23,664 nt of DNA, from the NCBI GenBank assembly GCA_963749705.1, contig CAVVNQ010000022.1, positions 1-23,664 on the forward strand. The letters are read 5' to 3'. This document shows, piece after piece, positions 5,957-23,664 of the stretch (position 1 is its first letter; each line of letters starts with the position of its first letter). Made by a program: the position numbers and the translations under genes. The notes under the pieces were generated by a model that was given only the letters and a program-made list of their open reading frames with translations, was not told where the DNA came from and made no database searches. This DNA is from an uncultured Chloroflexia bacterium (GTDB lineage Bacteria > Chloroflexota > Limnocylindria > Limnocylindrales > CSP1-4).

Positions 5957-6029
5957 GATCCGCCGACGCCCGCCAGGGTCAGAGACGCCCTGCGTGAGCC
6001 AAGCAGCCCAACGAGGACCACGACACCCG

Positions 6030-7079: not shown

Positions 7080-7122
7080 TCGCCCGCTCGCGCGGTCGCG
7101 GGTGCCCTCCGCCCACGCGCCA

Positions 7123-8043
7123 TCAGCCCCGGGGCAGCCGAGCCTCGGGCCCGTCGGGCGTCTCGTGAACCTCGAGGAGGCCCTCCGAACCAAGCGCGAG
7201 GACCGCTTCGCGAACGGCGGCGGGATCATGGCCGCCGATCCGTTCCCCGAACGGGATCAGGGCGCCATCGGCCGCGTCGCGGGCACGCGCGATGATCCGG
7301 CCACGCAGCCAGCGCGTGGTCGACGGGAACGGGGCAGCCGGGCGTCGTGGGCTCCCGCTCACGGCGGCCCGCCGTGGCGCCGCCCGCTCCCCCGCCGCGT
7401 ACCGGCACCAGGCCATCGCCGGGCAGTCGGCGCAGCGCGGGTTCCGCGGGCGGCACGGCCCAGCGCCGATGTCCATGAGCGCGTGCGTCCAGTCCCCGGC
7501 CCGATCGGGCGGGACCACCGCATCGGCCAGCGCCTGGAGCTCCGCGGGCGCAAGCGCCTCGGCCCCGCCGGCCGCGATCCGCCCGAGGACCCGCCGCACG
7601 TTGGTGTCGACCGCCCCGACCGGCAGCCCGAACGCGATCGCCGCGACGGCCCGCGCCGTGTACGGTCCCACGCCGGGCAGGGACCCGAGGCCCGCCACCG
7701 TGGCGGGTACGGAGCCGCCGTGCTCGGTCACGATCGCCTTCGCGGCCCGATGGAGATGGATCGCCCGCCGGTTGTAGCCCAGCCCCGCCCACGCCCGGAG
7801 GACGTCGGCAGCGGGTGCCGCGGCCAGCGCCTCGACCGTCGGAAAGCGGGCCATCCATGACGTCCACGCTTCGGCGGCGCGCGCCGCCTGCGTCTGCTGC
7901 GCCATGAGCTCCGAGACGAGGACCGCGTACGGATCGCGCGTCGCCCGGAAGGCGAGCCGGCGCCCGCTCACCTCGAACCAATCGAGGATGGCGTTGCGCA
8001 GGGCGGTCGGGATCGGGTCGACGGGCGGGTCGGGATCGGCCAC
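7123..8043 (-). CDS. mutY: A/G-specific adenine glycosylase, short form (306 aa)
   Basis: Motifs DPYAVLVSELMAQQT, WAGLGYNRRA, LPGVGPYTARAVA (HhH), VDTNVRRVL and the Fe-S loop CRPRNPRCADCPAMAWC. GTG at 8043 was chosen because the longer ORF is antisense to the LLM gene. Confidence 0.93.
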   Translation of the reverse strand: MADPDPPVDPIPTALRNAILDWFEVSGRRLAFRATRDPYAVLVSELMAQQTQAARAAEAWTSWMARFPTVEALAAAPAADVLRAWAGLGYNRRAIHLHRAAKAIVTEHGGSVPATVAGLGSLPGVGPYTARAVAAIAFGLPVGAVDTNVRRVLGRIAAGGAEALAPAELQALADAVVPPDRAGDWTHALMDIGAGPCRPRNPRCADCPAMAWCRYAAGERAAPRRAAVSGSPRRPAAPFPSTTRWLRGRIIARARDAADGALIPFGERIGGHDPAAVREAVLALGSEGLLEVHETPDGPEARLPRG

Positions 8044-9015: not shown

Positions 9016-9064
9016 GGCGAACCGGCGTCAGGCGAACCGGCGTCAGGCGAACCGGCGTCAGGCG
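9016..9064. repeat. Perfect 15-bp tandem repeat (GGCGAACCGGCGTCA) x3 plus 4 nt
   Basis: Units at 9016-9030, 9031-9045 and 9046-9060 are read directly from the sequence. The last unit contains the hemY stop codon. Confidence 0.95.
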
Positions 9065-10542
9065 GCCGGGACCGGCTCCCGCGCCCCCTCCTCGATCGCA
9101 CCGCCCAGGCGCGCGCGCACCGTCGCAGCGGCGACGTGCGCCTGCGAGATGCAGTCGGGCAACCCCACGCCGCGGTACGAGGCACCGGTCGTGATGACCG
9201 CGGGCCAGGTGGTCATGGCCGCCTCGATGGCCGCCACCCGGCCGAGATGACCGACGGTGTAGCGGGGCATCGCGCCCGCGTTCCGGTACACGCGAACCAG
9301 CGACGGCGGCCCGGCGATCCGGAGCGTCTGCTCGGCGTCGGTGCGTGCGGCGGCCACCAGTTCCGCCTCGGGCATCGAGGTCCAGCTGCCCTCGTCGCGC
9401 ACGAACATGCGAAGCAGCAGGGTGTCGGCCGGCGCCCGGTCGGGCCACTTCTCGGACGACCAGGTACACGCGGCGATCGCGCCGCCCTCGGTCGGCGGGA
9501 CGAGATAGCCGTGGCCGACGATCGCGCGCCCCACGCTCGCTCGCGGATACGCGAGCGTGACCAAAATGCTGGTTCCGTGCGGGATCGTCCGCAGCACCCG
9601 CGAGGCGCCCGGGACCTCGTCATCGAGCAGCGCCGCCGCAGGTGGCGCCGGAGTGGCGAGGATCACCGCGTCGAAGCGGCCGGCCGTCCCGTCCGCGAAC
9701 GTGGCGCTCACGCCCGCACCCGCACGCGCAAGGCTCCGGACCGCCAGGCCCGTCCGGATGTCCACCCCCGCCTCGGCCAGCGAGGTCGCGAGCACATCGA
9801 TGAGCGTGTCCATGCCACCCCGGAGGCTCGCGAACACGCCCAGCGGCTTCGGCATCGGCCCTGGTCCGGCGATCGGCGCCGTCGCCGCGGCAGACCTCGC
9901 CGCGGCAGCCCTCGCTGCAGCTGCACGCCGCATCGCCCGGCCGTCGGCAAGCCCCGCGAGCAGCAGGCTCCGGTGGTCGCGCTCGGCGGCTCGCAGCTGG
10001 GGAACCACCGCGTCCAGGCTGAGCTCGTCGATCGGCGTCCCGTAGACGCCGCCGACCAGGGGCCCGGCCAGCCGGTCCACCAGCGCGTTCCCGAGACGGC
10101 GCCGCAGGAACGTGCCCACGGCGACGTCATCGTCATCGAGCACGCGGCGCCAGGCGACATCCTTCGCCATCCGCGCCTTCTCGGGCCACGAGAACAGCCG
10201 CGTCCGCGCGAACGGCATTGCCCGCGTGGGCAGCACCAGGCCCAGCCCCTCGGGCATCGGGACCAGGTCGCCGCGGTGGCGGATGTAGACCGCCCGCGGG
10301 TTCCTCGTGCCCACCAGCGCGTCGGCCAGGCCGAGCTCGCGCGCCAGGGCGACGGCCGCGGGGCGCGTGGTCAGGAACGAGTCCGGGCCACGCTCGATCA
10401 CCAGGCCCTCGACCCGCTCGGTCGACACCTTGCCCCCCAGGCGGTCGCCCGCCTCGACGAGCGTGACGGGAACACCGTCGCGGGCCAGCTCCCGGGCGGC
10501 GGCGAGCCCGGTGATCCCGCCACCGACGATGAGGACGCTCAT
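9058..10542 (-). CDS. hemY: Coproporphyrinogen III / protoporphyrinogen oxidase (HemY/CgoX)
   Basis: Motifs VLIVGGGITGLAAA, RLGGKV, IERGPDSFL, GHGYLVP, WSSEKWP.RAP, MPRYTVGH and GVGLPDCI. Last gene of the hem operon. Confidence 0.95.
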   Translation of the reverse strand: MSVLIVGGGITGLAAARELARDGVPVTLVEAGDRLGGKVSTERVEGLVIERGPDSFLTTRPAAVALARELGLADALVGTRNPRAVYIRHRGDLVPMPEGLGLVLPTRAMPFARTRLFSWPEKARMAKDVAWRRVLDDDDVAVGTFLRRRLGNALVDRLAGPLVGGVYGTPIDELSLDAVVPQLRAAERDHRSLLLAGLADGRAMRRAAAARAAAARSAAATAPIAGPGPMPKPLGVFASLRGGMDTLIDVLATSLAEAGVDIRTGLAVRSLARAGAGVSATFADGTAGRFDAVILATPAPPAAALLDDEVPGASRVLRTIPHGTSILVTLAYPRASVGRAIVGHGYLVPPTEGGAIAACTWSSEKWPDRAPADTLLLRMFVRDEGSWTSMPEAELVAAARTDAEQTLRIAGPPSLVRVYRNAGAMPRYTVGHLGRVAAIEAAMTTWPAVITTGASYRGVGLPDCISQAHVAAATVRARLGGAIEEGAREPVPAA

Positions 10543-10570: not shown

Positions 10571-11801
10571 TCAGCCCGCAGCCGCCGCGGCGGCGGGGAC
10601 GATCCCATACTGCGGGACGTTGCCCGACGGCACGTACGGGCACAGCGGGTCGGCCTCGAGCGGATCGCCCGTCCACGCCCACGCGCGCGCCCTCGAGCCC
10701 CCGCAGATCCGCGCGTACTCGCATGCCCCGCAGCGACCCTTGAAGCCCTCGGGCCTGCGCAGGTCCCGCATCACCGGGTGGTCCCGGTACAGGTCGACGA
10801 TGCTCGCCTCGCGAACGTTGCCCAGCGGGATCGGCAGGAAGCCCGACGGGTTGACCGTCCCGTCGTGGCTGATGAACACGATCCCGTTGCCGTCGCGGAT
10901 GCCGAACCCGCGACCGACGGACGAGCCGGCGATCGCGTCCGCGTCCATCCCGTCGGCCTCCATCGCACGGACGGCGATCCGGCGGTAGTGCGTGGCCTCG
11001 GTCGTCTTGACCTGGAACGGCGCCGTCTTCGACAGCCCCCACAGCCACTGGTTGAGCTTCTCCGACTCGCCCGGCGACACCTCGCGGAGCGCGGACCCGC
11101 GGCCGGTGGTGATCAGCATGAACAGCGCCCAGCGCAGGATGTCCATGCCCTTGAGCAGCTCGTAGATCGCCGGCAGGTCCGCCAGCGTCTCGTCGGTGAC
11201 CAGCGTGTTGACCTGGATCGGCAGGCCCGCGGCGCGCGCCCACCTCGCCGCCTGGAGCGTCTTGTCGAACGTGCCCGGGACCATCCGGAACCCGTCGTGA
11301 CGCTGCGCATCGGAGCCGTCGATCGAGAGCGAGATGTTCTGGATCCCCGCGTCGCGCAGCGACTCCAGGACCGGCTGGGTCAGGAGCGGAGTGGCCGCAG
11401 GCGCCAGCGACGCGCCGATCCCGCGTGCGGTCGCGGCGCGGACGAGGTCGTGGAGGTCGGGGCGGTTGAGCGGGTCGCCGCCGGTGAACACGACGTGCGG
11501 GTACGGGACGGCCGAACCCGGTGATGTCGTCGAGCAGGCGGTACCCCTCCTCGATCGTCAGCTCGAGCGGGTTCCGTTCGGCCTGCGCGGTGGCACGGCA
11601 ATGGCGGCAGGCGAGCCCGCAGGCGAGCGTCGTCTCCCAGTACACGAGCATCGGGGCCCGGGCGTAGACGTAGCCGTCGGCGCGAACGGCGCCCACGCCC
11701 GTGATGCCACCGGGATGGCCGCCAGGGTGCCCGCCGGGGTGTCCGCCCGGATGGCCATTTCCGGGGTGTCCGCCGGGTGCACGGTCCGTGATCGTCGTCA
11801 T
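10571..11801 (-). CDS. Radical SAM/SPASM protein, TIGR04053-like (NirJ/AhbD-related), with an apparent +1 frameshift near 11505-11507
   Basis: The 5' part (ATG 11801, overlapping the hemH stop) has VYWETTLACGLACRHCRA (CxxxCxxC). The 3' part has FTGGDPL, SLSIDG, TTEATHYRR and GRCGACEYARICGGSRARA...DPLCPY. The span is 3n+1, and removing one G from GGG at 11505-11507 joins the halves as FGRPYPHVVFTGG. Confidence 0.85.
11706..11774 (-). repeat. Coding repeat of five GHPG units at the radical SAM N-terminus
   Basis: Translation GGHPGNGHPGGHPGGHPGGHPGG, with different synonymous codons in the units. Confidence 0.9.
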
Positions 11802-12748
11802 CGGATGTCTCCTCCGGCCGCCGCGGCGACCGTCTCGGGGGCCAGCGCCGCGGCGGCGAGATCGGCCAGCCCGGCGATGAAGGTGGGGTCGGTGTTCATC
11901 GAGCGCGCCCGTTCGAGCCGGATGCCCGCCTCGCGGGCGACCGCCTGCGCCTCGATGTCGATGTCGTAGAGCACCTCGAGGTGATCCGCCACGAACCCGA
12001 TCGGCCGGATCACGAGGTCGGCGACACCGTCGGCGGCCAGGCGCCGGATCTCGTCGAGGATGTCGGGGCCGAGCCACGGCTCGCCCGTCCGGCCGGCGCT
12101 CTGGAACGCGAAGTCGTAGCGCTCGAGGCCAAGCCGTTCCGCCACCAGCCGGGCCGTACCCGCGAGCTCGTCGGGGTAGGGGTCGCCGTCGGCGAGGACG
12201 CGGGCGGGCAGGCTGTGCGCGGTGAACATGACGCGCACGGTTGAGGCGTCGTCGAACCGGTCCAGCGCCTCGCGCGTGGTCGCCGCCATCGCCTCGATGA
12301 ACCGCGGCTGGTCGTACCACGAGTCGACGAAGACGACTGCCGGAGCGCCATCGCCGAGCGAGGACAGCGCCCCGTCGACCGCCCGGCGATACCCGGCGGC
12401 GTTGGACGACCTCTGGGGCGCCAGGGCGATGGCGACGAGGCGCTCGACACCGTCCGCCGCCATCCGGGCGACCACGTCGCCGATCCGCGGCTCGATGTGG
12501 CGCATCCCCGCGTATACCGGCATGGGTCGATCGCGAGCCGCCAGGTCCGCCTCGACCGCCGCTCGCTGCGCCTCGACGATCCGCGACAGCGGCGAGCCGC
12601 CGCCGATCGCCCGGTAGCGCCCGAGCAGCTCCTCGAGCAGGTGCGGCGGCGGCGGGCTGCCGCGCCGGATGTCGGTGTAGTAGGCCTCCACCTGGTCGAG
12701 CCGGTCGGGGCTGCCATAGGCCATCAGCAGGACGGCGTCGTGGGTCAT
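11798..12748 (-). CDS. hemH: Ferrochelatase (coproporphyrin ferrochelatase CpfC, Bacillus-like type; 316 aa)
   Basis: Motifs VLLMAYGSP, YYTDIRRG, RYRAIGG.SPL, FTAHSLP, FQSAGRTGEPWLGPD and GFVADHLEVLYDID. ATG at 12748 overlaps the hemE stop. Confidence 0.95.
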   Translation of the reverse strand: MTHDAVLLMAYGSPDRLDQVEAYYTDIRRGSPPPPHLLEELLGRYRAIGGGSPLSRIVEAQRAAVEADLAARDRPMPVYAGMRHIEPRIGDVVARMAADGVERLVAIALAPQRSSNAAGYRRAVDGALSSLGDGAPAVVFVDSWYDQPRFIEAMAATTREALDRFDDASTVRVMFTAHSLPARVLADGDPYPDELAGTARLVAERLGLERYDFAFQSAGRTGEPWLGPDILDEIRRLAADGVADLVIRPIGFVADHLEVLYDIDIEAQAVAREAGIRLERARSMNTDPTFIAGLADLAAAALAPETVAAAAGGDIR

Positions 12749-13820
12749 CGGGACGCTCCATGGTCGTGGACGAGGTCGACGACGCGGGCGAGGGCGTCGG
12801 GATCGGTGCCCGGCAGGACGCCGTGTCCCAGGTTGAAGATGTGGCCCGGCCGGCCGTCGTTCTGGTCGAGGATCCAGCGGGCGCTCTCCTCGACGGCATC
12901 CCACGGGCCGAGCAGCAGGGTCGGGTCCAGGTTCCCCTGGACCGCGCGGTCGCCGACCAGCTCGCGCCCGTCATCGATGGCGATCCGCCAGTCGAGCCCG
13001 ATCACGTCGCCGCCCGCTGCGGCCTGCTGGCGGAGGATCCCGGCCGTGCCGACGCCGAAGTGGATGATGGGCACGTCGAGCGGGGCGATGCCATCGAACA
13101 GGCGCCGCATCCACGGCGCGAGTCGGCGCTCGTAGTCGAGCGGGCTCAGGCCGCCGACCCAGGAATCGAACACCTGGACGGCCTCGGCGCCCGCGGCGAC
13201 CTGCGCCGACAGGTACCGGATGGTGGTCTCGACCAGCTGGTCCAGCAGGGCAGCCCACGCCTCGGGGTTCTCGTGCATCAGCCGCTTGGTGTGCAGGAAG
13301 TCGCGCGACGGGCCACCCTCGACGAGGTAGCACGCGAGCGTGAACGGCGCCCCGGCGAACCCGATCAGCGGCACAGGTGATTCGGCGCGGACCAGACGGA
13401 TCGCCTCGAGCAGGGCTGGGACCGCTGCCTCGGGCTGGAAGGTGCGAAGCGCCCGGACGTCCGCGATCGTGCGCACCGGGTGCTCGATGACCGGGCCGAC
13501 GCCCTCCCGGATGTCGAACGCGACCCCCATCCCGGCGAGCGGCGTCGTGATGTCCGCGAACAGGATCGCGGCATCGACGCCCAGGCGCCGGACCGGCTGG
13601 AGCGTGACCTCGGCGCACAGGGCCGGGTCGCGGGTGATCTCGAGCAGGGTGGCCCGTTCGCGGACCTTGCGGTATTCGGGGAGGGCCCGGCCCGCCTGGC
13701 GCATGAACCACACCGGCGTTGCGTCCACGCGCTCGCTGCGGGCGGCGCGCAGGAACCGCGCATCCGGGCGAGGCTCGGGAGCCGGGGCGACGGGGAGCGG
13801 CCCTCGCAGCGCCTTCACGG

Positions 13821-13824
<4 letters not shown>
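12745..13824 (-). CDS. hemE: Uroporphyrinogen decarboxylase
   Basis: Motifs PVWFMRQAGR.LPEY, DAAILFADI, LIGFAGAPFTLA.Y, QVFDSW, VQGNLDP and HIFNLGHG. Confidence 0.97.
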
Positions 13825-15134
<1,310 letters not shown>

Positions 15135-15136
15135 GA

Positions 15137-16180
15137 TCAGGACTCCCGGGACCAGGCCGCGAGGTCGCCGGCGGCATAGGTGATCACGAAGCCGGCACCG
15201 GCCCGCAGGATGGCGGTCGTGCTCTCGGTCAGGGCGCGGCGCCGGTCGAGCCAGCCGCGCTCGGCCGCCGCTTCGATCGAGGCATACTCCCCGCTCACCT
15301 GGTACGCCCCGATCGGGACGTCAAAGCGGCGCCGCGCCTCGGCCAGGATGTCGAGCGACGGCAGCGCCGGCTTGACCAGCAGCATGTCCGCACCCTCGGC
15401 GAGGTCGATCGCCATCTCGCGCATCGACTCCCGCCCGTTGGCCGGATCCATCTGGTAGCCGCGCCGGTCCCCGAACGACGGGGTGGATCCTGCGGCGTCA
15501 CGGAACGGGCCGTAGAAGGCGGACGCCGTTTTCGCGGCGTAGGCGAGGATCGCCGTGTCGTGGTACCCGTCGGCGTCCAGCCCGCGACGGATCGCGGCAA
15601 CCTGGCCGTCCATCATCCCGCTGGGCGCGACGATGTCGGCGCCTGCCTCGGCCTGCGAGGCGGCGGTCCGCGCGTACAGCTCGATCGTGGCGTCGTTGTC
15701 GACCCGCCCGTCGGCGAGCAGCGGCCCGCAGTGGCCGTGATCCGTGTACTCGCACAGGCACGTGTCGGCGATCAGGACCATGTCCAGGTCCGCATCGCGA
15801 AGCCGGCGCAGCGCCTCCTGGACGATCCCGTCCGCGACCCAGCCGCCGGTGCCCACGGCGTCCTTCCCGGCCGGGAGCCCGAACAGGATCAGGCCGCCGA
15901 CGCCCGACGCGGCGAGCGCCCGAGCGTCGCGCACGGCCTCGTCAGGGGTCACGCGCTCCACGCCGGGCATCGAGCCCACGGGATCGCGGCGTCCGTGTCC
16001 GGGCTGGACGAACAGCGGCGCGACCAGCTGGCGGGGATGGATCCGCGTCTCGCGCACGAACGCGCGCAGCGCGTCGGTCCGGCGCGTGCGGCGGAGCCGG
16101 TGGGCGGGATCGGGGACGACCACAGCGTCGTCGCCGGTGGATGGATCGGCGACGGCCGGCCGATCGGCGATGAGGCTCAT
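15137..16180 (-). CDS. hemB: Porphobilinogen synthase (Zn-dependent type)
   Basis: Motifs DTCLCEYTDHGHCG, APSGMMDG, SAFYGPFRDA, YQMDPAN, LVKPA and AYQVSGEY. Confidence 0.97.
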   Translation of the reverse strand: MSLIADRPAVADPSTGDDAVVVPDPAHRLRRTRRTDALRAFVRETRIHPRQLVAPLFVQPGHGRRDPVGSMPGVERVTPDEAVRDARALAASGVGGLILFGLPAGKDAVGTGGWVADGIVQEALRRLRDADLDMVLIADTCLCEYTDHGHCGPLLADGRVDNDATIELYARTAASQAEAGADIVAPSGMMDGQVAAIRRGLDADGYHDTAILAYAAKTASAFYGPFRDAAGSTPSFGDRRGYQMDPANGRESMREMAIDLAEGADMLLVKPALPSLDILAEARRRFDVPIGAYQVSGEYASIEAAAERGWLDRRRALTESTTAILRAGAGFVITYAAGDLAAWSRES

Positions 16181-17943
16181 CGAGCTCCTCCGGGAGTGAG
16201 GCCGGCGGCGTACGCGACCGGCGGGGCGAGGACATCGGTCTGGTCGAGCAGCGGGGTGTGGCTCGCCGAAACCCCGAGGGAGGTAGCGACGAACCGGGCG
16301 AGGTCGGCTGCTGCGGGCGACGGGGCGACGAGGACGGTGGCGAAGCCGAGCGAGCGCGCGGCCTCCGCGGTGGGCGCGCCGATCGCCACGACCGGCGTCG
16401 CTCGCAGCCGTTCGTGCGTCTCGGGCTCCGAGGCCAGGGCGAGCAGCCCGCGCACGGTGGATCCGCTGGTGAGCACCAGGGCGTCGATCGGGCCGTCGTC
16501 GAGGGCATCGGCGAGCAGCGCCCGCGAGGCCTCGGGGCCTTCGACGGTGCGGTAGGCGATCACCTCGGTGACCGTGGCGCCACGCGCCTCGAGGGCAGCC
16601 GGCAGCGCGGAGTCGGCAATGTCGGAGCGCGGCAGCACGACGCGGTCACCGGCCTCGATCGGCAGCTCGCGGGCCAGCACTCGTCCGCTCGCGGTCGACG
16701 GCCGGAACGCCACACTGATCCCAGCAGCACCGAGGATGGTGGCCGTGCCGTCGCCGATCGCGCTCCACCGACGGCGACGAGGATCGATCCCGCTCCGGAT
16801 GACCGCCTCGACCGCCGCCACGGCCGCGTTGCGGCTGGTGATCACGAGCCAGTCGCCCGAACCACCGCCGGCCAGCGCCCTGTCCAGCGCGCCGTCCGGC
16901 ACGGCCGGCAGGATCTCGATGGCCGGGACGTTGACGGCGGCGACGCCGGCGTTCTCGAGCGCGGCAAGGAGCGGCTGCGCCTGGCCCGCCGCCCGGGCGA
17001 CCAGCACCCGGGGAGCGCGGCGCAGCGTCACGATGCGCGCCGCCAGGCGCTCCGCCAGGGCGAGATGATCAACGGCGGGTGCCTCCCCGCCGACCCGGAC
17101 GACCGGGGACGGGGCGATCGGCGAATTGGGCGTCGGTGTCCATTCGCGTTCGGCCGCAGCCACCAGCCGGAGCCGCCCGCGCGAGACCGTCCCGATCGCG
17201 CCGATCGGCGACCGGCAGCCACCGCCGGTCGCGTTGAGCAGCGCCCGCTCGGCCACGACCGCCACGCGCGTCGCCGGGTCGTCGAGCCGCCCGACGGCCT
17301 CGATCGCGCGGGCGTCGTCCGAGCGCACCTGGATCGCGAGCGAGCCCTGGCCCGGCGCGGACACGACCTGGCCCGACGGCAGGATCTCGTCGATCCGGTC
17401 AGCCCGGCCGAGCCGCGTGAGCCCGGCGACCGCGAGCACCAGCGCGTCGCTGTCGCCGCGGTCGAGCTTGGCCAGCCGCGTGTCGACGTTCCCGTGCAGC
17501 GGGTGCATCTGCAGATCGGGCCGGAGCGCATGGAGGAAGGCGGTGCGGCGCGGGCTGTCGGTGCCGACGCGTGCACCCTCGGGCAGCGTGGCCAGCGTCG
17601 TGCCCCGGATGCGGCACACCAGCGCGTCGCGCGGGTCCTCGCGCGGCGGGTAGGCGGCGATCACCAGGCGCGCGTGCTCGTCCGTCGGGACGTCCTTCGC
17701 GCTGTGGACGGCGATGTCCACGGACCCGTCGAGCAGGGCGCCGACGATCGCACCCACGAACGCGCCTTCGCCCCACGCGGTGTCGATCGGTCGATCATCG
17801 CCCTCGGTCCGGATGATCACGAGGTCGGCCGGCACGCCGTCCTCGGCCAGCCGCGCGGCAACCCAGCGCGCCTGGACGAGGGCAAGGGGGCTGCCACGGG
17901 TGCCGATGCGAAGCGCGACGGTCATCTCGGGATCCACGGGCAT
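16177..17943 (-). CDS. hemC: Fused hydroxymethylbilane synthase / uroporphyrinogen-III synthase (HemC-HemD, 588 aa)
   Basis: N-terminal HemC motifs: LRIGTRGSPLALVQA, DIAVHSAKDVP, REDPRDAL, GNVDTRL.KL, GGCRSPIG. C-terminal HemD motifs: LVITSRNA, AIGDGTA, V.EVIAYRT, LTSGSTV, AIGAPTA. One continuous frame; ATG at 17943 overlaps the hemA stop (TGATG). Confidence 0.93.
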   Translation of the reverse strand: MPVDPEMTVALRIGTRGSPLALVQARWVAARLAEDGVPADLVIIRTEGDDRPIDTAWGEGAFVGAIVGALLDGSVDIAVHSAKDVPTDEHARLVIAAYPPREDPRDALVCRIRGTTLATLPEGARVGTDSPRRTAFLHALRPDLQMHPLHGNVDTRLAKLDRGDSDALVLAVAGLTRLGRADRIDEILPSGQVVSAPGQGSLAIQVRSDDARAIEAVGRLDDPATRVAVVAERALLNATGGGCRSPIGAIGTVSRGRLRLVAAAEREWTPTPNSPIAPSPVVRVGGEAPAVDHLALAERLAARIVTLRRAPRVLVARAAGQAQPLLAALENAGVAAVNVPAIEILPAVPDGALDRALAGGGSGDWLVITSRNAAVAAVEAVIRSGIDPRRRRWSAIGDGTATILGAAGISVAFRPSTASGRVLARELPIEAGDRVVLPRSDIADSALPAALEARGATVTEVIAYRTVEGPEASRALLADALDDGPIDALVLTSGSTVRGLLALASEPETHERLRATPVVAIGAPTAEAARSLGFATVLVAPSPAAADLARFVATSLGVSASHTPLLDQTDVLAPPVAYAAGLTPGGAR

Positions 17944-19190
17944 CACAGCGAGAACAGGGCTCGGGCGGCACGTTCCAGGTCGCCGGTCGAGTCGTCGCGC
18001 AGCGTGGCCAGCGGGTCGTGCAGCAGGCCCGCCACCAGCCGATGGCTCATCTGCTCGACCAGCTCCCGCTGGTGGTCGGCGAGGTCGAGCCGCCGGAACA
18101 GGCGATCCAGCTCCTCCAGCCGGCGCGTCTCCGCGCGATCGCTGAGGGCCTGGATCGCCGGGACGCTGTTCCGCGTGGCGACCCACTGGCTGTACTTTGC
18201 CTCCGCGGCGTCCAGCACCCGCTCGAACCGCCGGCGAAGCCGCGCGCGCATCTCGTCGTGCGGGTTCCGGGCAAGGTCGTCGACCGACACGTGCCGCCCG
18301 GCGATCCGGGCGCGGAGATCCGGGTCGAGCGCGGGCGGCGATGACAGGTCGGCAACCGGAAGTTCGTTCGCGATGAGCGCGGATCGCGCGACGGACGACA
18401 GTGGCCAGCGGGCGCTGATCGCGACCACGACCGCGTCCACCTCCGGCAGGGCTGCATCCGATCCGAATGCCGCCGGCTCGCCGTTGACGTCGTACGCCAG
18501 CGCCGCCGCTCGTTCGCTGCTGCGATTGGCGACCAGGACGTGGGCGCCCTGCCGTGACGCCGAGACGGCTGCCAGCCGGGCCATGCGTCCGGCACCGACG
18601 ACGAGGACCTTGCGTCCGAGCAGCGGCCCGGTGAACGGGAGAAGGCGGTCGAGCGCAGCGTCGGCAAGCGAGCGCGGCGGACCTTCGCGCCATGAGCGTG
18701 TCTCGCGGCCAAGGTGGAGCGCGATCTGGAACAGGCGCTCGAGAGCCGGGTGCAGCCCGATGGCATGCGAGCTCGCCGAGCCGATCGGTTCGGGGCATCG
18801 TTCGGCGCCCGGAACACGTCGATCGGAGAGGCACTCGCGCAGCTGGTGGAGGATCTGATCCTCGCCCACCACCACCGAATCGAGGCCCGCCGCCACCGTG
18901 AACAGGTGCCGGGCCGCGGCGGCACCCTCGAGCCGGCGACCGCCGCGCGGCAGGGCAGGCAGGGGTGGCAACGGATGGCCATCGAGGGGTTCATCGACGA
19001 CGTACAGCTCAGCGCGATGGCAGGTGCGAACGAGGATCGCGCGCGGATCATCGGCGATCGATGCGGCCGCAGCGGCGAACGCCTCGCGCTCGTCGCTCTC
19101 GACATGGCGCGCGTGGAGCACGAGGGCGAGCACGTGCAGACGCAGATCTGCGCGGGGGTCGGTCACGGAGGGATCGCGGGGATCGGTCAC
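17943..19190 (-). CDS. hemA: Glutamyl-tRNA reductase (divergent)
   Basis: TCHRAELY (canonical TCNR.E.Y), AGLDSVVVGEDQIL.Q, NADPH motif VLVVGAGRM, VANRS and C-terminal LLHDP. First enzyme gene of the operon. Confidence 0.9.
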   Translation of the reverse strand: MTDPRDPSVTDPRADLRLHVLALVLHARHVESDEREAFAAAAASIADDPRAILVRTCHRAELYVVDEPLDGHPLPPLPALPRGGRRLEGAAAARHLFTVAAGLDSVVVGEDQILHQLRECLSDRRVPGAERCPEPIGSASSHAIGLHPALERLFQIALHLGRETRSWREGPPRSLADAALDRLLPFTGPLLGRKVLVVGAGRMARLAAVSASRQGAHVLVANRSSERAAALAYDVNGEPAAFGSDAALPEVDAVVVAISARWPLSSVARSALIANELPVADLSSPPALDPDLRARIAGRHVSVDDLARNPHDEMRARLRRRFERVLDAAEAKYSQWVATRNSVPAIQALSDRAETRRLEELDRLFRRLDLADHQRELVEQMSHRLVAGLLHDPLATLRDDSTGDLERAARALFSL

Positions 19191-19885
19191 GACGGGCTCC
19201 CGGGATTGGGGTTGGATGCTCGACGCGAGCGTCGGCTGGCCCCCAGCGCCGCGGGCTCCCAGCCGCGAAGGGTTGCGAGCAGCAGGTCGTCGAGCGCCGT
19301 GTTGGCGTCCGTGAACAGCCTGGAGGTAGCGTCGGCATCGAACTCGCGCCGACGGGCGATCGCGCCCAGCTCGGCGATGAACGGGCGCCGGAAGCGCAGG
19401 AACAGGTCGGCCGTCGTTGCCGACCCGAGGCCCTCGCGTCCGGCGATCCGGCCGTACTCGGTGCAGGCGTCCTCCGCATCCCTGAGGAGCTCGCGCCGGC
19501 GGCGCTCATCGGAGGTGTCGAGCGCGGCAACGAGCGCCGTCACGATGCCGCGGCCGTACTGGCGAAAGCGCTCGCGACTCTCGTCGCTGAGCTCGGCGAC
19601 CCACGGGATTCGGCTGGGCGTCTCGTCGGCCGCGCGACGGTAGCCCCGTGCCATCCGGCCCGGTGTCTCGCCAAGGGCGGTGAGCGACGGTCGACCGCTC
19701 GGCTGGTCCGGCAGCAATGCCTGGAGCCCGCCTCGCGAGAAGCGGCGGTGACCGCCCGGGGTCACGAATGTCCGAACCATGCCGCCGTCACCCCAGCGGC
19801 GCACCGTGGACGGCGAGACGCCGAGCAATCGGCAGGCCTCGGTGAGCGTGACCCAGTCGGGGTCGGCGGCTGCTCGGGCTCGCAT
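19187..19885 (-). CDS. Helix-turn-helix (excisionase/BldC/MerR-like) DNA-binding protein with C-terminal helical domain; putative heme operon regulator (232 aa)
   Basis: WVTLTEACRLLGVSPSTVRRWGDGG...TPGGHRRF matches the HTH_17/BldC pattern. The stop overlaps the hemA GTG (GTGA). ATG at 19885 with GGGAGG upstream. Confidence 0.85.
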   Translation of the reverse strand: MRARAAADPDWVTLTEACRLLGVSPSTVRRWGDGGMVRTFVTPGGHRRFSRGGLQALLPDQPSGRPSLTALGETPGRMARGYRRAADETPSRIPWVAELSDESRERFRQYGRGIVTALVAALDTSDERRRRELLRDAEDACTEYGRIAGREGLGSATTADLFLRFRRPFIAELGAIARRREFDADATSRLFTDANTALDDLLLATLRGWEPAALGASRRSRRASNPNPGSPS

Positions 19886-19895
19886 CGGGGACGCA

Positions 19896-19964
19896 AAACC
19901 TCCCAAATCTACCAAACCTTCGCGGAAATCAAAGCATAGTAGGTTTCCCTCGGGGGGGTATCGA
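19896..19964 (-). promoter_or_regulatory. Putative promoter (-35 TCGATA, 17 bp, -10 TACTAT) and direct-repeat operator of the hem operon
   Basis: AT-rich island. -10 at 19936-19941 and -35 at 19959-19964. Plus-strand AAA(C/T)CT occurs at 19896, 19905 and 19914 (9-bp period), with an inverted copy at 19941-19946. Confidence 0.6.
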
Positions 19965-20190
19965 CAGGGCCGTCCGGTCCGCGTATGGCCCGCCGAAGGC
20001 ACGGGTCGGCCGGGACTTCTCGCCGCTCGGTGATGAAATCGGTGGGACCCGCCGACGGCCCGGTTGGCCGCAACGCGCTACCGTTGGCAGCCTCGGACCG
20101 CGGCCCGTAATCGCCGGTGTCGTTCGGCCCTCGGCCTCCCCGACCGGCAGGCGCACGACGTCGCTACCGGCTGCCATGCAGGAGCGTTCC

Positions 20191-20868
20191 ATGACCAGCC
20201 CCGATCCCAACAGCACGGTTCGCTACGCCGTGTGGGCCGTCTATGCACGCGTCGGGTCGCCGCCGGACGGGACCGGTGCTGCGACCGAGCTCGAGGCGTG
20301 GGCCGCGGCACTCGCCGACGACGATGTCGTCCTCCGCGGCTGGTACGACGTCTCGGGCTTGCGCGCCGATGCCGACGTGATGCTCTGGCTCCACGGACCG
20401 AGCGCCGAATCCCTCCAGGCCGCGCTGCGCGGCTTTCGCCGGACGGCCGTCGGTGCGGCCACTGATATCGCGTTCTCGATGATGGGCACCCACCGACCGG
20501 CCGAGTTCAGCCGTGACCACGTGCCGTCGTTCATGCTCGGAACTCGTCCCCTCGGGTGGCTGTGCGTCTACCCCTTCGTCCGGTCATATGAGTGGTACCT
20601 GCTGCCCGACGACGAGCGGCGGGCGATGCTCGCCGAGCACGGCACGGCGGGCCGGGCATTTGCGCGCGTCCAGGCGAACACGGTCGCCGCCTTCGCTCTC
20701 AACGACTACGAGTGGATCCTGGCCCTCGAGTCTGACGATCTCCACGATCTCGTGGACCTCATGCGCGATCTCCGCTCCACGGGGGCGCGGCGGCATGTGC
20801 GCGAGGAGATCCCGTTCCACACCGGCCGGCGGATCGAGGCCGACGGGGTCATCGACGTCCTGCGGTGA
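20191..20868 (+). CDS. hemQ: Coproheme decarboxylase / H2O2-dependent heme synthase (ChdC/HemQ), actinobacterial type
   Basis: Motifs RGWYDVSGLRADAD.M.W.H, HRPAEF..DH.P.F, YPFVRSYEWYLLP..ERRAMLAEHG and AFALNDYEWILA. AGGAG SD before ATG 20191. Confidence 0.93.
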   Translation: MTSPDPNSTVRYAVWAVYARVGSPPDGTGAATELEAWAAALADDDVVLRGWYDVSGLRADADVMLWLHGPSAESLQAALRGFRRTAVGAATDIAFSMMGTHRPAEFSRDHVPSFMLGTRPLGWLCVYPFVRSYEWYLLPDDERRAMLAEHGTAGRAFARVQANTVAAFALNDYEWILALESDDLHDLVDLMRDLRSTGARRHVREEIPFHTGRRIEADGVIDVLR

Positions 20869-21954
20869 CCAGCAACCACGACGCCATCCTCCTGGTCTCG
20901 TTCGGCGGGCCGGACGGCCCCGACGACGTGATGCCGTTCCTCGAGAACGTGACGCGGGGTCGGGGCATCCCACGAGCACGACTCGAGGCGGTGTCCCACC
21001 ACTACCTCGCGCTCGGGGGTGTGAGCCCGATCAATGACCAGAACCGTGCACTCCTGGACGCGCTCCGAGGCGAGTTGGCGGCGCGCCGGGTGGAACTCCC
21101 CCTCTATTGGGGGAACCGGAACTGGGAACCCTTCCTCGCCCCGACGCTGGAGCAGATCCGCGCCGACGGACGCAAGCGTGTCCTCGCGCTCGTGACCAGC
21201 GCATACGCGTCGTACTCGGGCTGCCGTCAGTACCGGGAGGATCTCGCACGAGCCCTCGAGGCCACGGGGCTGTCGGGTGACCTCGTGATCGACAAGGTCC
21301 GCCTGTACTTCGACCACCCGGGGTTCGTCGGACCCTTCGCCGAAGGGCTGGCGACCGCGCTCGCGGAGCTGGCGACGCTCGGGTTCGAACGGGATGAGAC
21401 GCGCGTCATGTTCACGACGCACTCGATCCCGCTGTCGATGGCCGCGGCGTCCGGTCCGCCCGGCGGCTTCGACGCCGGCGGCGCCTACGTGTCCCAGCAT
21501 CAGGCGGCGATCGGCGCCGTGCTCGACGAGGCACGAGCCCGCGGCGCCGACCTGCCCCGATGGTCGCTCGCGTACCAGTCGCGCAGTGGATCCCCGACCG
21601 TCGCCTGGCTCGAGCCGGACATCAACGACGCGCTCCGCGATGCACGAGCGGAGGGGATGCGGGCCGTCGTGGTCGCTCCGATCGGGTTCGTCAGCGACCA
21701 TGTCGAGGTCGTGTGGGACCTCGACCACGAGGTACGCGAGACGTGCGAGACCCTGGGCGTGCGCATGCACCGGGTCGCGACGCCGGGGACCCATGCGCGG
21801 TTCGTGGCCGGCCTTGCCGACCTGATCGAGGAACGCGTTTCGGGCCGGCCGGCCGCGGCCCGCAGCTCACTCGGGCCCTGGCCGTCGACATGCGCGAGCG
21901 ACTGCTGCGCGAACCCGCGCGGCGCGAGCGCCGGCCATCGCCGGAACGGAATAG
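20865..21954 (+). CDS. hemH: Second ferrochelatase (CpfC, actinobacterial type with Cys-rich tail); probable +1 frameshift near 21920-21932 (uncorrected ORF runs to 22145)
   Basis: Motifs LLVSFGGP.GPDDV.PFLENVTRGRGIP, GGVSPIN, YWGNRNW.P, SYSGCRQY, FTTHSIP, WLEPDIND, GFVSDHVEV.WDLD and CASDCCANPR. The shifted frame gives a natural end PAIAGTE* at 21954, whereas the unshifted tail is low-complexity and overlaps the convergent gene. Confidence 0.9.
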
Positions 21955-22029
21955 CCCCCGTCGCATCCCTCATGGCGCAGCGCCGGGCATGGGGCCGCGG
22001 ACTGCGCAAACAGACCGGCCGGGGATCAA

Positions 22030-22056
22030 CGCGGCCGCCGGGTTGCGGCGGCCGCG
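22030..22056. terminator. GC-rich hairpin between convergent genes, possible terminator
   Basis: CGCGGCCGCCG-GGTTG-CGGCGGCCGCG is a perfect 11-bp stem. No clear U-tract. Confidence 0.5.
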
Positions 22057-22102
22057 GATCTGGCGTCAGGCGAATGGCGGTCGACCGCCTCGCCGGGGCG
22101 AG

Positions 22103-23558
22103 CTACTCGCCCGTGTTGATCGTGATGTGCTTGACGAACGTGTAGTCCTCGAGCGCGTACTTGGAGCCGTCCTTGCCGTAGCCCAATTCCTTCACGCCGC
22201 CGTGGGGGGTCTCGGACGACAGCGTGAAGTGCTCGTTGATCCACACGGTGCCGTACTGCAGCCGACGCGCGACGCGCATCGCCTTGCCGATGCTGCCGGT
22301 GAACACCGACGACGCGAGGCCGAACTTGACGTCGTTCGCCCACTGGACGGCCTGCTCCTCGTCGGAGAACCGCTGGACCGTGACGACCGGGCCGAACACC
22401 TCGTCCTGGACGATCTCACTGCCCTGGTCCGGGTTGGCGATGACCGTGGGCTCGAAGTAGGCGCCCGGCCGATCCGGCCGGTGCCCACCAAGCACCAGCT
22501 CGGCCTTGGCCTCGAGCGCTCGATTGACCATGCCCTCGACCTTATCGGCCTGCGCCTGGGCGATGAGCGAGCCCATGTCGAGGTCGTCGGCGTCGGCGGG
22601 GTTGCCCCACTTGATCGTCTTCACCTGGTCGGCGAGCGCCGCGATGAGCGGCTCGTAGACCTTCGGCCCGGCGATCACGCGGCAGGCCGCGGTGCAGTCC
22701 TGGCCACTGTTCCAGTAGCCGGCCGACTTGAGGATCTCGGCCGCGAGGTCGACATCGGCGTCGTCGAACACGATCACGGGCGCCTTGCCACCCAGCTCGA
22801 GATGGAGCTTCTTGACCGTGCCGGCCGCCAGCTCCGCGATGTGCTTTCCGGTCACGGTGTCGCCCGTGATCGAGACCATGCGCACCTTCGGGTGGGACAC
22901 CAGGAAGTCGCCCATCGCGCCGCCCGAGCCCGCCAGGACGTTGAGCACGCCCGCCGGCAGCTGGTCCGCGATCAGCTCGGCGAACCGGAGCGCCGACAGC
23001 GGCGTCCGCGCCGACGGCTTGAGCACGACCGTGTTGCCCGTCGCGAGCGCGGGCCCGAGCTTCCAGGCCGCCATGTACAGCGGGTAGTTCCAGGGCGCGA
23101 TCGAGGCCACGACGCCGATCGGGTCGCGGCGGATCATCGAGGTGTGGCCGTCGAGGTACTCCGTGACCGCGAGCCCCTCGGGGATGCGGCAGGCGCCGGC
23201 GAAGAACCGGAACAGGTCGCTCGAGGTGGCCATCTCGTCGATCGCGGCCGCGGTCGGCTTGCCCGGTCTGGCTCGACTCCAGCCGGCCGAGCTCGTCGCC
23301 GTTGGCGTCGAGGATGTCGGCGATCCTGAGCAGCGCGAGGCTGCGCGTCTGGGGCGTGGTCAGCGACCAGCTCTCGAACGCGTCCGCGGCGGCGTCGACG
23401 GCGCGGTTGACGTCCTCCAGGCCTGATGCGGGGACCGTGGCGACGACCTCGCCCGAGGCGGGGTTCTCGACATCGAGCGTCGCTCCTGAGACGGCGTCCA
23501 CCCACTGGCCGCCGATGAACTGCTGGTACGACTTGACGGGGTTGAGGGTCTCGGTCAC
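22103..23558 (-). CDS. NAD-dependent aldehyde dehydrogenase, gamma-aminobutyraldehyde dehydrogenase (PatD/YdcW)-like; apparent +1 frameshift at 23262-23264
   Basis: 5' part has FIGGQWV and VENPASGEV. 3' part has HTSMIRRDPIGVV.SIAPWNYPL.MAAWKL, LELGGKAP, NSGQDCTAA and EVFGPV. Removing one C restores SQTGKP. GTG at 23558 with GGAGG SD. Confidence 0.9.
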
Positions 23559-23664
23559 TGGAGCCTCCATCGGCACGGATGCGCGCTCGTCGCTGACGGG
23601 ATGATCACCCCGGATTGTGCGCCTGCCCGCGGCGGCGTTCCACCCCGGGCCCACGTCGCGCGAC

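What the first reader, a model, noticed from the sequence alone, without database searches (positions are those of the whole stretch)
10571..11801. Radical SAM enzyme embedded between hemH and hemY: candidate peroxide-independent terminal heme enzyme
Seen: the gene is translationally coupled to hemH (ATGA) inside an operon that encodes every step from Glu-tRNA to coproheme but no decarboxylase. Known: the coproporphyrin-dependent route ends with ChdC (needs H2O2) or the radical SAM enzyme AhbD, and TIGR04053-like proteins are AhbD/NirJ relatives without a firm function. Inference: this protein is an alternative coproheme decarboxylase, or another anaerobic tetrapyrrole-modifying enzyme. That would assign a role to an orphan family.
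Basis: partly seen in the sequence, partly recalled or inferred. Interest (0 to 1): 0.75.

Follow-up and report, generated by a model that had tools for sequence, protein, structure and literature searches.

The report
AhbD-like heme synthase in heme operon
A radical-SAM gene between the ferrochelatase and coproporphyrinogen-oxidase genes of a soil Chloroflexota genome is a close relative of AhbD, the known oxygen-independent enzyme for the last step of heme synthesis; the arrangement is already described, and the gene's break is most likely an assembly error.

Summary
The gene is real: 10571-11801, minus strand, ATGA-coupled to hemH and followed by hemY. Read through its one-base frameshift it scores 446 bits on TIGR04053 (cut-off 395) and 302 on AhbD/TIGR04545 (cut-off 500).

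Three points of the finding need correcting.
1. A ChdC/HemQ gene, with a second ferrochelatase, lies in the same window (20176-22145, plus strand). No decarboxylase is missing.
2. The window is an alternative-haplotype contig. The same assembly holds an intact allele (C6, 447.6 bits). Five unpaired one-base indels break genes on either contig, hemB among them, so the frameshift is probably an assembly error.
3. TIGR04053 is not an orphan. It carries the cysteine pattern published for AhbD of non-methanogenic archaea: radical-SAM cluster plus AuxII, with Glu/Ser at the AuxI sites. Haloferax volcanii has a member, and IMG names several homologs 'AdoMet-dependent heme synthase'.

hemH-rSAM-hemY synteny holds in 75 of 80 Limnocylindria loci. 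Natural fusions join TIGR04053 to ferrochelatase and to a HemY-type oxidase. ChdC co-occurs rather than being replaced (27 of 44 genomes).

Reviews already state that the coproporphyrin pathway can end with AhbD, so this is a new member of a known kind. In what I read, the biochemistry of a bacterial coproporphyrin-pathway member is untested. Low interest.

The parts
10571..11801 (-). AhbD-like radical SAM gene (NCBIfam TIGR04053), 409 codons once the single extra base is skipped; the stop TGA is at 10571-10573.
   Evidence: translation. TIGR04053 446.2 bits (cut-off 395), TIGR04545 301.7 (cut-off 500). AlphaFold2 model of the intact allele, pLDDT 88.6.
11505..11510 (-). Frameshift site: one extra base relative to the intact allele on contig C6.
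   Evidence: With that base left out, the whole gene is in frame with the C6 allele.
11706..11777 (-). N-terminal His-Pro-Gly-Gly repeats (residues 9-32), lying before the conserved core that starts at residue 47.
   Evidence: At least two HP[G/A] repeats occur in 94 of the 120 closest homologs. The model is disordered over residues 1-35.
11598..11621 (-). CX3CX2C motif (C61, C65, C68), ligands of the radical SAM [4Fe-4S] cluster.
   Evidence: Pfam PF04055.
10640..10732 (-). C-terminal CX2CX5CX20C motif (C357, C360, C366, C387), the AuxII cluster site. S369 sits where Cys-type AhbD has a cysteine.
   Evidence: motif definition from passages of PMC10452713.
11798..12748 (-). hemH copy 1 (coproporphyrin ferrochelatase, 316 aa). 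Its start overlaps the hemE stop (ATGA) and its stop overlaps the rSAM start (ATGA).
9058..10542 (-). hemY (HemY/CgoX-type oxidase, 494 aa), 28 bases downstream of the rSAM stop.
   Evidence: TIGR00562 244 bits, cut-off 97.85.
12745..20002 (-). Upstream part of the same operon: HTH/MerR-like gene 19187-20002, hemA 17943-19190, fused hemC-hemD about 16177-17943, hemB 15137-16180, hemL 13821-15134, hemE 12745-13824.
   Evidence: family hits; junction overlaps.
20176..20868 (+). chdC/hemQ, the peroxide-dependent coproheme decarboxylase, pointing away from the operon.
   Evidence: NF042928 321.2 bits, cut-off 235; PF06778.
20865..22145 (+). hemH copy 2, GTGA-coupled to chdC. Its C-terminal tail holds a Cys-rich stretch, and the ORF runs about 100 aa beyond the ferrochelatase profile.
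   Evidence: NF000689 443.1 bits, cut-off 408. It is absent from contig C6 and from the rest of the assembly. The same-genus genome G079 has the same chdC-hemH pair.

Best explanation
The gene encodes an AhbD-type radical SAM heme b synthase, that is, an oxygen- and peroxide-independent coproheme decarboxylase. It belongs to the subtype that lacks the first auxiliary cluster (NCBIfam TIGR04053).

Inferred mechanism, taken from studied AhbDs:
1. The [4Fe-4S] cluster on C61/C65/C68 cleaves SAM to a 5'-deoxyadenosyl radical.
2. The radical abstracts a hydrogen from the propionate beta-carbon on ring A or B of coproheme.
3. The substrate radical loses CO2 and one electron, which leaves through the AuxII cluster (C357/C360/C366/C387).
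4. This yields a vinyl group. Two rounds pass through a monovinyl intermediate to heme b.

The substrate comes from the ferrochelatase encoded immediately upstream. The enzyme works beside ChdC, not instead of it, and probably matters when O2 or H2O2 is scarce.

The frameshift in this window is most likely an assembly error on an alternative-haplotype contig. The same assembly holds an intact allele.

Shown here: family membership, motifs, fold, synteny, fusions, the intact allele. Inferred: substrate, chemistry, physiological role.
For: Family:
- Scores are TIGR04053 446.2 (cut-off 395), then AhbD TIGR04545 301.7, NirJ2 184.4, NirJ 161.2, AhbC 158.9, all full length.
- The intact allele on C6 scores 447.6.

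Link to AhbD:
- In 24 Cys-type against 86 Ser-type representatives, the radical-SAM and AuxII cysteines are kept.
- The four AuxI cysteines are replaced by E268 (Glu in 61 of 86), I301 (variable), S319 (Ser in 70 of 86) and S369 (Ser in 86 of 86).
- That is the pattern Fix et al. describe for AhbD of non-methanogenic archaea (passages, PMC10452713).
- TIGR04545-type proteins form one clade (26 rows, SH-aLRT 99) and the Ser-type rows make up the rest of the family tree.
- At E<=1e-118, TIGR04053 rings in Haloferax volcanii alone among 14 control genomes. Deleting H. volcanii ahbD gives a heme-rescued anaerobic growth defect (abstract and passages, PMC5746218).
- The best-scoring representative, P0130 (488 bits), is from Natrinema.
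- A1 mixes both types, and several Arg and His positions are invariant or nearly so across its 85 sequences.

Context:
- hemH lies directly upstream and hemY directly downstream in 75 of 80 Limnocylindria loci.
- 17 of 30 Chloroflexota loci have heme genes within 1.5 kb, in at least 7 arrangements.

Fusions:
- P0274/P0139 join TIGR04053 (453/447 bits) to ferrochelatase.
- P0317 joins TIGR04053 (445.9 bits) to a HemY-type oxidase that is 33% identical to the window's HemY.
- Cys-type relatives are instead fused to AhbA/AhbB.

Fold: pLDDT 88.6; best matches are PqqE, SuiB, SkfB, BlsE and anSME.

Frameshift as an error:
- The window is 96.6-99.9% identical to C6:132052-157627.
- Of 5 unpaired one-base indels between the contigs, 2 break window genes (rSAM, aldehyde dehydrogenase) and 3 break C6 genes (glpD, an F420 oxidoreductase, hemB).
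- The two alleles differ in 26 codons, 21 of them synonymous.
- 78 of 80 related loci carry an intact gene.
- No ahbC was found in the genome.
Against: - It scores below NCBI's AhbD cut-off (301.7 against 500).
- In what I read, no member from a coproporphyrin-pathway bacterium has been assayed. The 2026 review says only that AhbD 'may' catalyse the step (passages, PMC13564367).
[quoted passage not shown] A natural AuxI-less enzyme may therefore work differently.
- The gene shares an operon with a HemY/CgoX-type oxidase, and CgoX is described as oxygen-dependent (passages, PMC10965808). No CgoN (DUF1444) was found in the 88%-complete genome. A fully anaerobic route is not evident.
- 13 of 30 phylum loci show no heme gene within 1.5 kb.
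- I could not show that the Haloferax TIGR04053 hit is the published ahbD locus.
- No reads covered the frameshift site, so a true pseudogene in this strain is not excluded.
Confidence: 0.7

Rival explanations
1. The window's copy is a genuine pseudogene. In this strain variant the AhbD-like gene has been inactivated by a one-base insertion, and heme synthesis ends with ChdC alone, served by the extra ferrochelatase that only this haplotype carries.
For: - The frameshift is in the sequence.
- The insertion is not in a long homopolymer.
- This haplotype alone carries chdC-coupled hemH copy 2.
- 9 of 15 other genomes of the same family show no TIGR04053 match, so the gene can be lost.
Against: - Single-base frame breaks also hit hemB, glpD and an F420 oxidoreductase on the sister contig, and the aldehyde dehydrogenase on this one. 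That fits consensus error better than parallel decay.
- 21 of the 26 codons that differ between the alleles are synonymous, and there is no second lesion.
- 78 of 80 related loci are intact.
Confidence: 0.15
2. The protein is a radical SAM tetrapyrrole enzyme with a chemistry other than coproheme decarboxylation. It might act in an AhbC- or NirJ-like way on another side chain, or on coproporphyrin(ogen) rather than coproheme.
For: - NCBI keeps the family apart from AhbD and gives it no functional name.
- It lacks the AuxI cluster of the assayed AhbDs.
- Some members are fused to unrelated domains: PNPOx-like, GNAT, FeS_assembly_P.
- 13 of 30 phylum loci show no heme neighbour.
Against: - AhbD is clearly the best named match. 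AhbC and NirJ score about half as much.
- The same AuxI-less pattern is reported for the AhbDs of non-methanogenic archaea (passages, PMC10452713).
- The fusions and synteny are with the enzymes just before the coproheme-to-heme step.
- The genome shows no ahbC that would point to a siroheme route.
Confidence: 0.12
3. One reading: the enzyme is the only terminal decarboxylase of a pathway that has no ChdC.
For: - The minus-strand operon itself holds no chdC.
- In 17 of 44 Chloroflexota genomes with a TIGR04053 member, no Chlor_dismutase-family gene was found. The sole-enzyme situation may therefore exist elsewhere.
Against: chdC is in this window at 20176-20868 and also on contig C6.
Confidence: 0.02

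Closest known systems
AhbD (heme b synthase, NirJ2-like) of Methanosarcina barkeri and Desulfovibrio vulgaris; NCBIfam TIGR04545
   Same: - Same domain order and length.
- Full-length HMM match of 301.7 bits.
- CX3CX2C motif and C-terminal CX2CX5CX20-38C motif.
- One continuous family on the tree.
- Presumed same substrate and chemistry.
   Different: - Below the model's cut-off of 500.
- The four AuxI cysteines are replaced by Glu, a variable residue, Ser and Ser.
- It is linked to hemH/hemY, whereas the Cys-type is fused to AhbA/B.
AhbD of non-methanogenic archaea (Aeropyrum, Sulfolobus, Pyrobaculum, Halorubrum; Haloferax volcanii ahbD)
   Same: - Same AuxI-less Glu/Ser/Ser signature (against passages of PMC10452713).
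- H. volcanii holds a protein above the TIGR04053 cut-off, and Natrinema proteins are named TIGR04053 by NCBI.
- Haloferax also keeps a ChdC-type enzyme for aerobic growth and ahbD for anaerobic growth (PMC5746218), which parallels chdC plus rSAM here.
   Different: - Those organisms make coproheme from siroheme (AhbA/B/C). Here it comes from the coproporphyrin route (hemY, hemH).
- The His-Pro-Gly-Gly N-terminal tail appears in the Limnocylindria proteins examined; other lineages were not examined for it.
- Identity of the Haloferax hit with the published locus was not verified.
ChdC/HemQ (peroxide-dependent coproheme decarboxylase)
   Same: Presumed same overall reaction, coproheme to heme b. 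It is encoded in the same window and is also coupled to a ferrochelatase gene.
   Different: Unrelated fold and cofactor logic: the Chlor_dismutase family uses H2O2, with no SAM and no Fe-S clusters.
AhbC, NirJ and NirJ1 (radical SAM enzymes of siroheme-derived heme and heme d1 synthesis)
   Same: Same radical SAM/SPASM superfamily branch, acting on tetrapyrrole substrates.
   Different: Scores are far below their cut-offs: AhbC 158.9 of 650, NirJ 161.2 of 515, NirJ1 152.7 of 650. No ahbC was found in the genome.
CgdH/HemN (oxygen-independent coproporphyrinogen dehydrogenase)
   Same: Analogous chemistry: radical SAM decarboxylation of propionate to vinyl on rings A and B (passages, PMC7242693, PMC10548856).
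   Different: A different radical SAM family without a SPASM/Twitch domain. It acts on the metal-free porphyrinogen of the protoporphyrin pathway.
Solved SPASM/Twitch radical SAM enzymes: PqqE (6c8v), SuiB (5v1t), BlsE (7vob), anSME (4k37)
   Same: Best structural matches of the model, Foldseek E 1e-17 to 1e-11, and best sequence matches in the PDB. BlsE is also a radical SAM decarboxylase.
   Different: Only 14-21% identity, with other substrates. No AhbD, AhbC or NirJ entry appeared among the PDB sequence matches at E<=1e-5.

Membership tests
NCBIfam TIGR04053 (radical SAM/SPASM family, formerly 'BA_1875 family') | Whole-protein HMM score at or above the curated cut-off of 395 bits. | tested here: met
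   446.2 bits for the read-through and 447.6 for the intact allele on C6. The two broken pieces alone score 362.6 and 64.7.
Radical SAM superfamily | CX3CX2C motif for the SAM-binding [4Fe-4S] cluster, in a partial TIM barrel. | tested here: met
   C61, C65 and C68; PF04055 hit; model with radical SAM fold matches.
AhbD as NCBIfam TIGR04545 (heme b synthase equivalog) | Whole-protein HMM score at or above 500 bits. | tested here: not met
   301.7 bits; 302 for the intact allele. Of the 24 representatives whose best family is TIGR04545, only 1 reached 500, so the cut-off is strict.
AhbD as described in the literature (Fix et al. 2023) | C-terminal CX2CX5CX20-38C motif (AuxII cluster), present in all AhbDs compared there. 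| tested here: met
   C357-X2-C360-X5-C366-X20-C387; motif from passages of PMC10452713.
AhbD as described in the literature (Fix et al. 2023) | Full SPASM motif with four further cysteines (AuxI). This is found only in the AhbDs of methanogens and sulfate reducers. | tested here: not met
   E268, I301, S319 and S369 stand in their place. This matches the paper's second group, the non-methanogenic archaeal AhbDs.
AhbD (function) | SAM-dependent conversion of coproheme III to heme b through a monovinyl intermediate. | not testable with these tools
   Needs anaerobic enzymology or complementation.
AhbD (function) | Genomic linkage to enzymes that make coproheme. | tested here: met
   hemH-rSAM-hemY in 75 of 80 loci; heme neighbours in 17 of 30 phylum loci; natural fusions to ferrochelatase and to a HemY-type oxidase.
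AhbC (TIGR04546), NirJ (TIGR04051), NirJ1 (TIGR04054), NirJ2 (TIGR04055) | Score at or above the curated cut-off (650, 515.45, 650 and 500). | tested here: not met
   158.9, 161.2, 152.7 and 184.4 bits.

The most novel reading that the evidence does not exclude
In Limnocylindria the AuxI-less AhbD-type enzyme is the main heme synthase, not an anaerobic spare. It is built into an otherwise oxygen-using coproporphyrin operon (hemH-rSAM-hemY) in soil bacteria. Its conserved N-terminal (His-Pro-Gly-Gly)n tail captures iron, coproheme or heme, or docks the enzyme to the ferrochelatase, so that coproheme is handed over directly. The natural rSAM-HemH and rSAM-HemY fusions elsewhere hint at such hand-over. 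If so, a radical SAM step would run routinely in aerated habitats, and the terminal heme enzymes would form a channelling complex.
Probability: 0.15. Interest if true: 0.5.

Novelty: new member of a known kind. Interest (0 to 1): 0.25.

Why it matters
It matters little as a discovery. That AhbD can end the coproporphyrin pathway, and that ahbD sits with hemY/hemH/hemQ, is already review-level knowledge.

It has some use as tidying:
- NCBI's unnamed family TIGR04053 is the same thing as the AuxI-less AhbD type of non-methanogenic archaea.
- The family is widespread, over the cut-off in 44 of 301 Chloroflexota genomes sampled.
- It usually accompanies ChdC rather than replacing it.
- It occurs naturally fused to both of its pathway neighbours.

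In the passages I read, no enzyme from a coproporphyrin-pathway bacterium has been assayed. The intact allele on contig C6 would be a reasonable candidate for that experiment.

Tried and rejected
- Read support for the frameshift. The best public run held only 0.21 of the sampled words. Contigs of four runs laid on 10571-12400 left 11486-11668 uncovered, so nothing can be said from reads.
- Binding of HemH copy 1 to the rSAM protein. Complex prediction gave 'no answer', score 0.01. I draw no conclusion from it.
- Primary sources for AhbD in coproporphyrin-pathway bacteria (Dailey et al. 2015 and 2017) are not held. I rely on passages of later reviews that cite them. I did not open the supplements of Fix et al. 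2023 (full alignment, Figure S1).
- A full-text search for 'TIGR04053' found 0 papers. The searches 'AhbD + Chloroflexi', 'AhbD + Firmicutes + anaerobic + HemQ', 'AhbD + coproporphyrin-dependent' and 'AhbD + coproheme decarboxylase + Actinobacteria' listed no paper whose title or abstract start reports an assay of a bacterial coproporphyrin-pathway AhbD. I searched nine of the listed papers for passages and did not open the others.
- My first guess of an actinobacterium (72.8% G+C) was dropped. The closest named records are Limnocylindrales/Chloroflexota MAGs.
- A GC3-only gene call was too strict. I replaced it by family scans of the candidate ORFs.
- 'No decarboxylase in the locus' was rejected.
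- A siroheme route in this genome found no support. ahbC was not found in the 88%-complete assembly.
- An earlier-notes look-up near this place found nothing.
Full report
**What is there**

The window is 23,664 bases at 72.8% G+C. Family scans of the candidate ORFs and the gene junctions give one tightly packed minus-strand operon:

| Gene | Coordinates |
|---|---|
| HTH/MerR-like gene | 19187-20002 |
| hemA | 17943-19190 |
| fused hemC-hemD | about 16177-17943 |
| hemB | 15137-16180 |
| hemL | 13821-15134 |
| hemE | 12745-13824 |
| hemH copy 1 | 11798-12748 |
| radical SAM gene | 10571-11801 |
| hemY | 9058-10542 |

Most junctions are ATGA, GTGA or TGATG overlaps.

The plus strand points the other way. 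It starts 173 bases beyond the operon's first gene and carries chdC/hemQ at 20176-20868 (NF042928, 321.2 bits against a cut-off of 235). A second ferrochelatase follows at 20865-22145, coupled by GTGA. So 'no decarboxylase' is true of the operon but not of the locus or the genome.

**The frameshift**

- Codons 1-96 are in one frame and the rest is in the +1 frame.
- The window is the whole of contig C22 of a 22-contig, 3.6-Mb assembly that is 88% complete.
- It is 96.6-99.9% identical to C6:132052-157627 of the same assembly, so it is an alternative-haplotype contig.
- On C6 the gene is intact: 409 aa, 447.6 bits on TIGR04053.
- The window reads CGT CCC G TAC where C6 reads CGC CCC TAC, which is one extra base.
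- With that base left out, the two alleles differ in 26 codons, 21 of them synonymous.

There are five unpaired one-base indels between the two contigs, and each breaks a conserved frame. Two are on the window (this gene and the aldehyde dehydrogenase near 23265). Three are on C6 (glpD, an F420-dependent oxidoreductase, and hemB). Breaks in genes such as hemB, spread over both contigs at roughly one per 4-5 kb, look like consensus errors.

Of 80 related loci, 78 carry the gene in one frame and 2 (L037, L065) are broken. No public run covered the site, so this stays an inference. I put it at about 0.8.

**Family**

Read through with the code GTAC=V, the protein scores as follows:

| Family | Bits | Cut-off |
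|---|---|---|
| TIGR04053 | 446.2 | 395 |
| AhbD (TIGR04545) | 301.7 | 500 |
| NirJ2 (TIGR04055) | 184.4 | 500 |
| NirJ (TIGR04051) | 161.2 | 515 |
| AhbC (TIGR04546) | 158.9 | 650 |
| NirJ1 (TIGR04054) | 152.7 | 650 |

It is a TIGR04053 member, and AhbD is its nearest named relative over the full length.

The closest database proteins are 67-94% identical. Where they carry an organism name, they come from Candidatus Limnocylindrales or Chloroflexi MAGs. IMG of the 120 listed 'AdoMet-dependent heme synthase' and one 'BA_1875 family'.

**How TIGR04053 relates to AhbD**

- An exhaustive search returned 150 representatives at the 50% identity level. I scanned 114 of them, leaving out 36 short or fragmentary ones. 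TIGR04053 was the best family for 90 and TIGR04545 for 24, of which only one reached TIGR04545's own cut-off.
- I built a tree of 113 rows: the query plus 112 of the 114. Two truncated rows, P0220 and P0221, were dropped. The TIGR04545-type proteins form one clade of 26 rows (SH-aLRT 99), and the Ser-type rows make up the rest of the tree. The root was placed at the midpoint only.
- The two types differ in a simple way. All keep the radical SAM cysteines (C61, C65, C68) and the C-terminal CX2CX5CX20C motif (C357, C360, C366, C387).
- The four further cysteines of the Cys-type are replaced in the 86 Ser-type rows. They become E268 (Glu in 61), I301 (variable), S319 (Ser in 70) and S369 (Ser in all 86).
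- Fix et al. 2023 report the same for AhbDs of non-methanogenic archaea: three AuxI positions hold conserved Glu and Ser, and the fourth is not conserved (passages, PMC10452713).
- Tightening the E-value made the control list name the genomes. At E<=1e-90, TIGR04053 rings in Haloferax volcanii and Methanosarcina acetivorans. At E<=1e-118 it rings in Haloferax alone.
- The best-scoring representative, P0130 (488 bits), is a Natrinema protein. Others are from Nitrososphaerota, Thermoplasmatota, Gemmatimonadota, Clostridia and Polyangiales.
- Deleting H. volcanii ahbD gives a heme-rescued anaerobic growth defect, while its ChdC-type PitA serves aerobic growth (abstract and passages, PMC5746218). 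I could not verify that the TIGR04053 hit is that locus, but it is the simplest reading.

**Context**

- In 80 Limnocylindria loci, hemH lies directly upstream and hemY directly downstream in 75. The other 5 have hemY only, and 2 of these sit at a locus edge. These genomes are kin and do not count as independent cases.
- Across 301 sampled Chloroflexota genomes, 44 have a match over the cut-off.
- Of 30 such loci with 1.5-kb flanks, 17 have heme genes next door and 13 do not; one of the 13 has only the HTH homolog. Three of the 17 are from the window's own family.
- The arrangements seen are hemY-rSAM-hemH, rSAM-hemH-hemY, hemH-rSAM-hemY, hemY-rSAM, hemB-rSAM-(chdC-like)-hemE, hemB-rSAM-hemE, hemA-rSAM-hemB and hemL-rSAM.
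- A Chlor_dismutase-family gene was found in 144 of the 301 genomes. Five of those genomes are marked unpublished.
- I crossed the two tables by eye. 27 of the 44 genomes with TIGR04053 also have such a gene, as do 117 of the 257 without. The family accompanies ChdC more often than it replaces it.
- The own genome has no ahbC and no DUF1444/CgoN.

**Fusions**

- P0274 (695 aa, on a 2.14-Mb contig) and P0139 (700 aa) join a TIGR04053 domain (453 and 447 bits) to a ferrochelatase.
- P0317 (832 aa, Polyangiales MAG) joins one (445.9 bits) to a HemY-type oxidase. That oxidase scores 196 bits on TIGR00562 (cut-off 97.85) and is 33% identical to the window's HemY.
- Nine Cys-type relatives are instead fused to AhbA/AhbB-type domains.
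- The fusions repeat the window's two gene neighbours.

**Structure**

The AlphaFold2 model of the intact allele is confident (pLDDT 88.6, pTM 0.87). Only residues 1-35 and 403-409 are disordered. Its best solved matches are PqqE, SuiB, SkfB, BlsE and anSME. No AhbD-family entry appeared among the PDB sequence matches.

**Mechanism (inferred)**

The chemistry is taken to be as in the assayed AhbDs:
1. SAM is cleaved at the radical SAM cluster.
2. A hydrogen is abstracted from a propionate of coproheme.
3. CO2 is lost together with one electron, which leaves through AuxII.
4. This happens twice, through a monovinyl intermediate, to give heme b.

Many Arg and His positions are invariant or nearly so across an alignment that mixes both types. 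This would fit a shared polycarboxylate substrate.

**Against, and open**

- In what I read, no coproporphyrin-pathway member has been assayed.
- An M. barkeri variant with a perturbed AuxI cluster stalls at the monovinyl stage (PMC10452713).
- The operon's HemY is of the CgoX type, which is described as oxygen-dependent (passages, PMC10965808), so 'anaerobic' may really mean 'peroxide-independent'.

**Comparison with what is in print**

[quoted passage not shown] ChdC' (PMC7242693).
- AhbD occurs in Gram-positive bacteria that lack the other AHB enzymes (PMC13564367).
- All three are passages I read. Dailey 2015 and 2017, which they cite, are not held.
- Two earlier notes of this scan, on other genomes, reached the same reading.

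**Verdict**

This is a new member of a known kind and of low interest. The one loose thread is the conserved N-terminal (His-Pro-Gly-Gly)n tail.

Noticed in passing
window 1-23664 (whole contig C22) against G000:C6:132052-157627: The window is an alternative-haplotype contig of a region also assembled on C6. Identity is 99.9% at the left end, 91.7-96.6% in the middle and 99.2% at the right end. Window 4845-7132 is replaced by about 5.1 kb on C6.
   Followed up: partly
window 20865-22145 (+): A second ferrochelatase is GTGA-coupled to chdC. It is present only on this haplotype and absent from C6 and the rest of the assembly. The same-genus genome G079 has the same chdC-hemH pair, while four other genomes of the family have a single ferrochelatase, next to the rSAM gene. 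The tail holds a Cys-rich stretch. The ORF runs about 100 aa past the profile into the convergent gene, so its true stop may be lost.
   Followed up: partly
window 22103-23654 (-), break near 23265: The aldehyde dehydrogenase gene is split over two frames by a one-base insertion relative to C6.
   Followed up: partly
G000:C6 near 134453, 143673 and 150419-150421: The sister contig has its own one-base frame breaks in glpD, an F420-dependent LLM oxidoreductase and hemB, where the window is intact.
   Followed up: yes
window 11706-11777 (-): The rSAM protein has an N-terminal (His-Pro-Gly-Gly)n tail. The repeat number varies from 2 to 6, and the tail is present in 94 of the 120 closest homologs. 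It is disordered in the model. One run's contig skips 49 bases inside the repeat region. Its function is unknown; metal or heme binding is a guess.
   Followed up: partly
window 19187-20002 (-): An HTH/MerR-like gene is the first gene of the heme operon and overlaps the hemA start (GTGA). A homolog precedes hemA in most of the 80 related loci. It is a candidate regulator facing the divergent chdC promoter region at 20003-20175.
   Followed up: no
window about 16177-17943 (-): hemC and hemD lie in one ORF, an apparent fusion. The product is only 80.7% identical between the two haplotypes, whereas the other heme proteins of the two haplotypes are 96-100% identical.
   Followed up: no
proteins P0274, P0139, P0317, P0194, P0128, P0137, P0146: TIGR04053-type domains occur naturally fused to ferrochelatase and to a HemY-type oxidase. 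Related Ser-type proteins are fused to a PNPOx-like domain, an FeS_assembly_P domain and a GNAT domain.
   Followed up: partly
loci L037 and L065: Two of the 80 related loci also carry the rSAM gene split over two frames.
   Followed up: no
loci L096 and L108, and genomes G267, G199, G176, G284, G236, G027: In some Chloroflexota genomes the TIGR04053 gene sits beside a second, more distant radical SAM/SPASM gene (about 29-33% identity, or 205-236 bits on the same model). This may be an AhbC-AhbD pair of a siroheme route.
   Followed up: no
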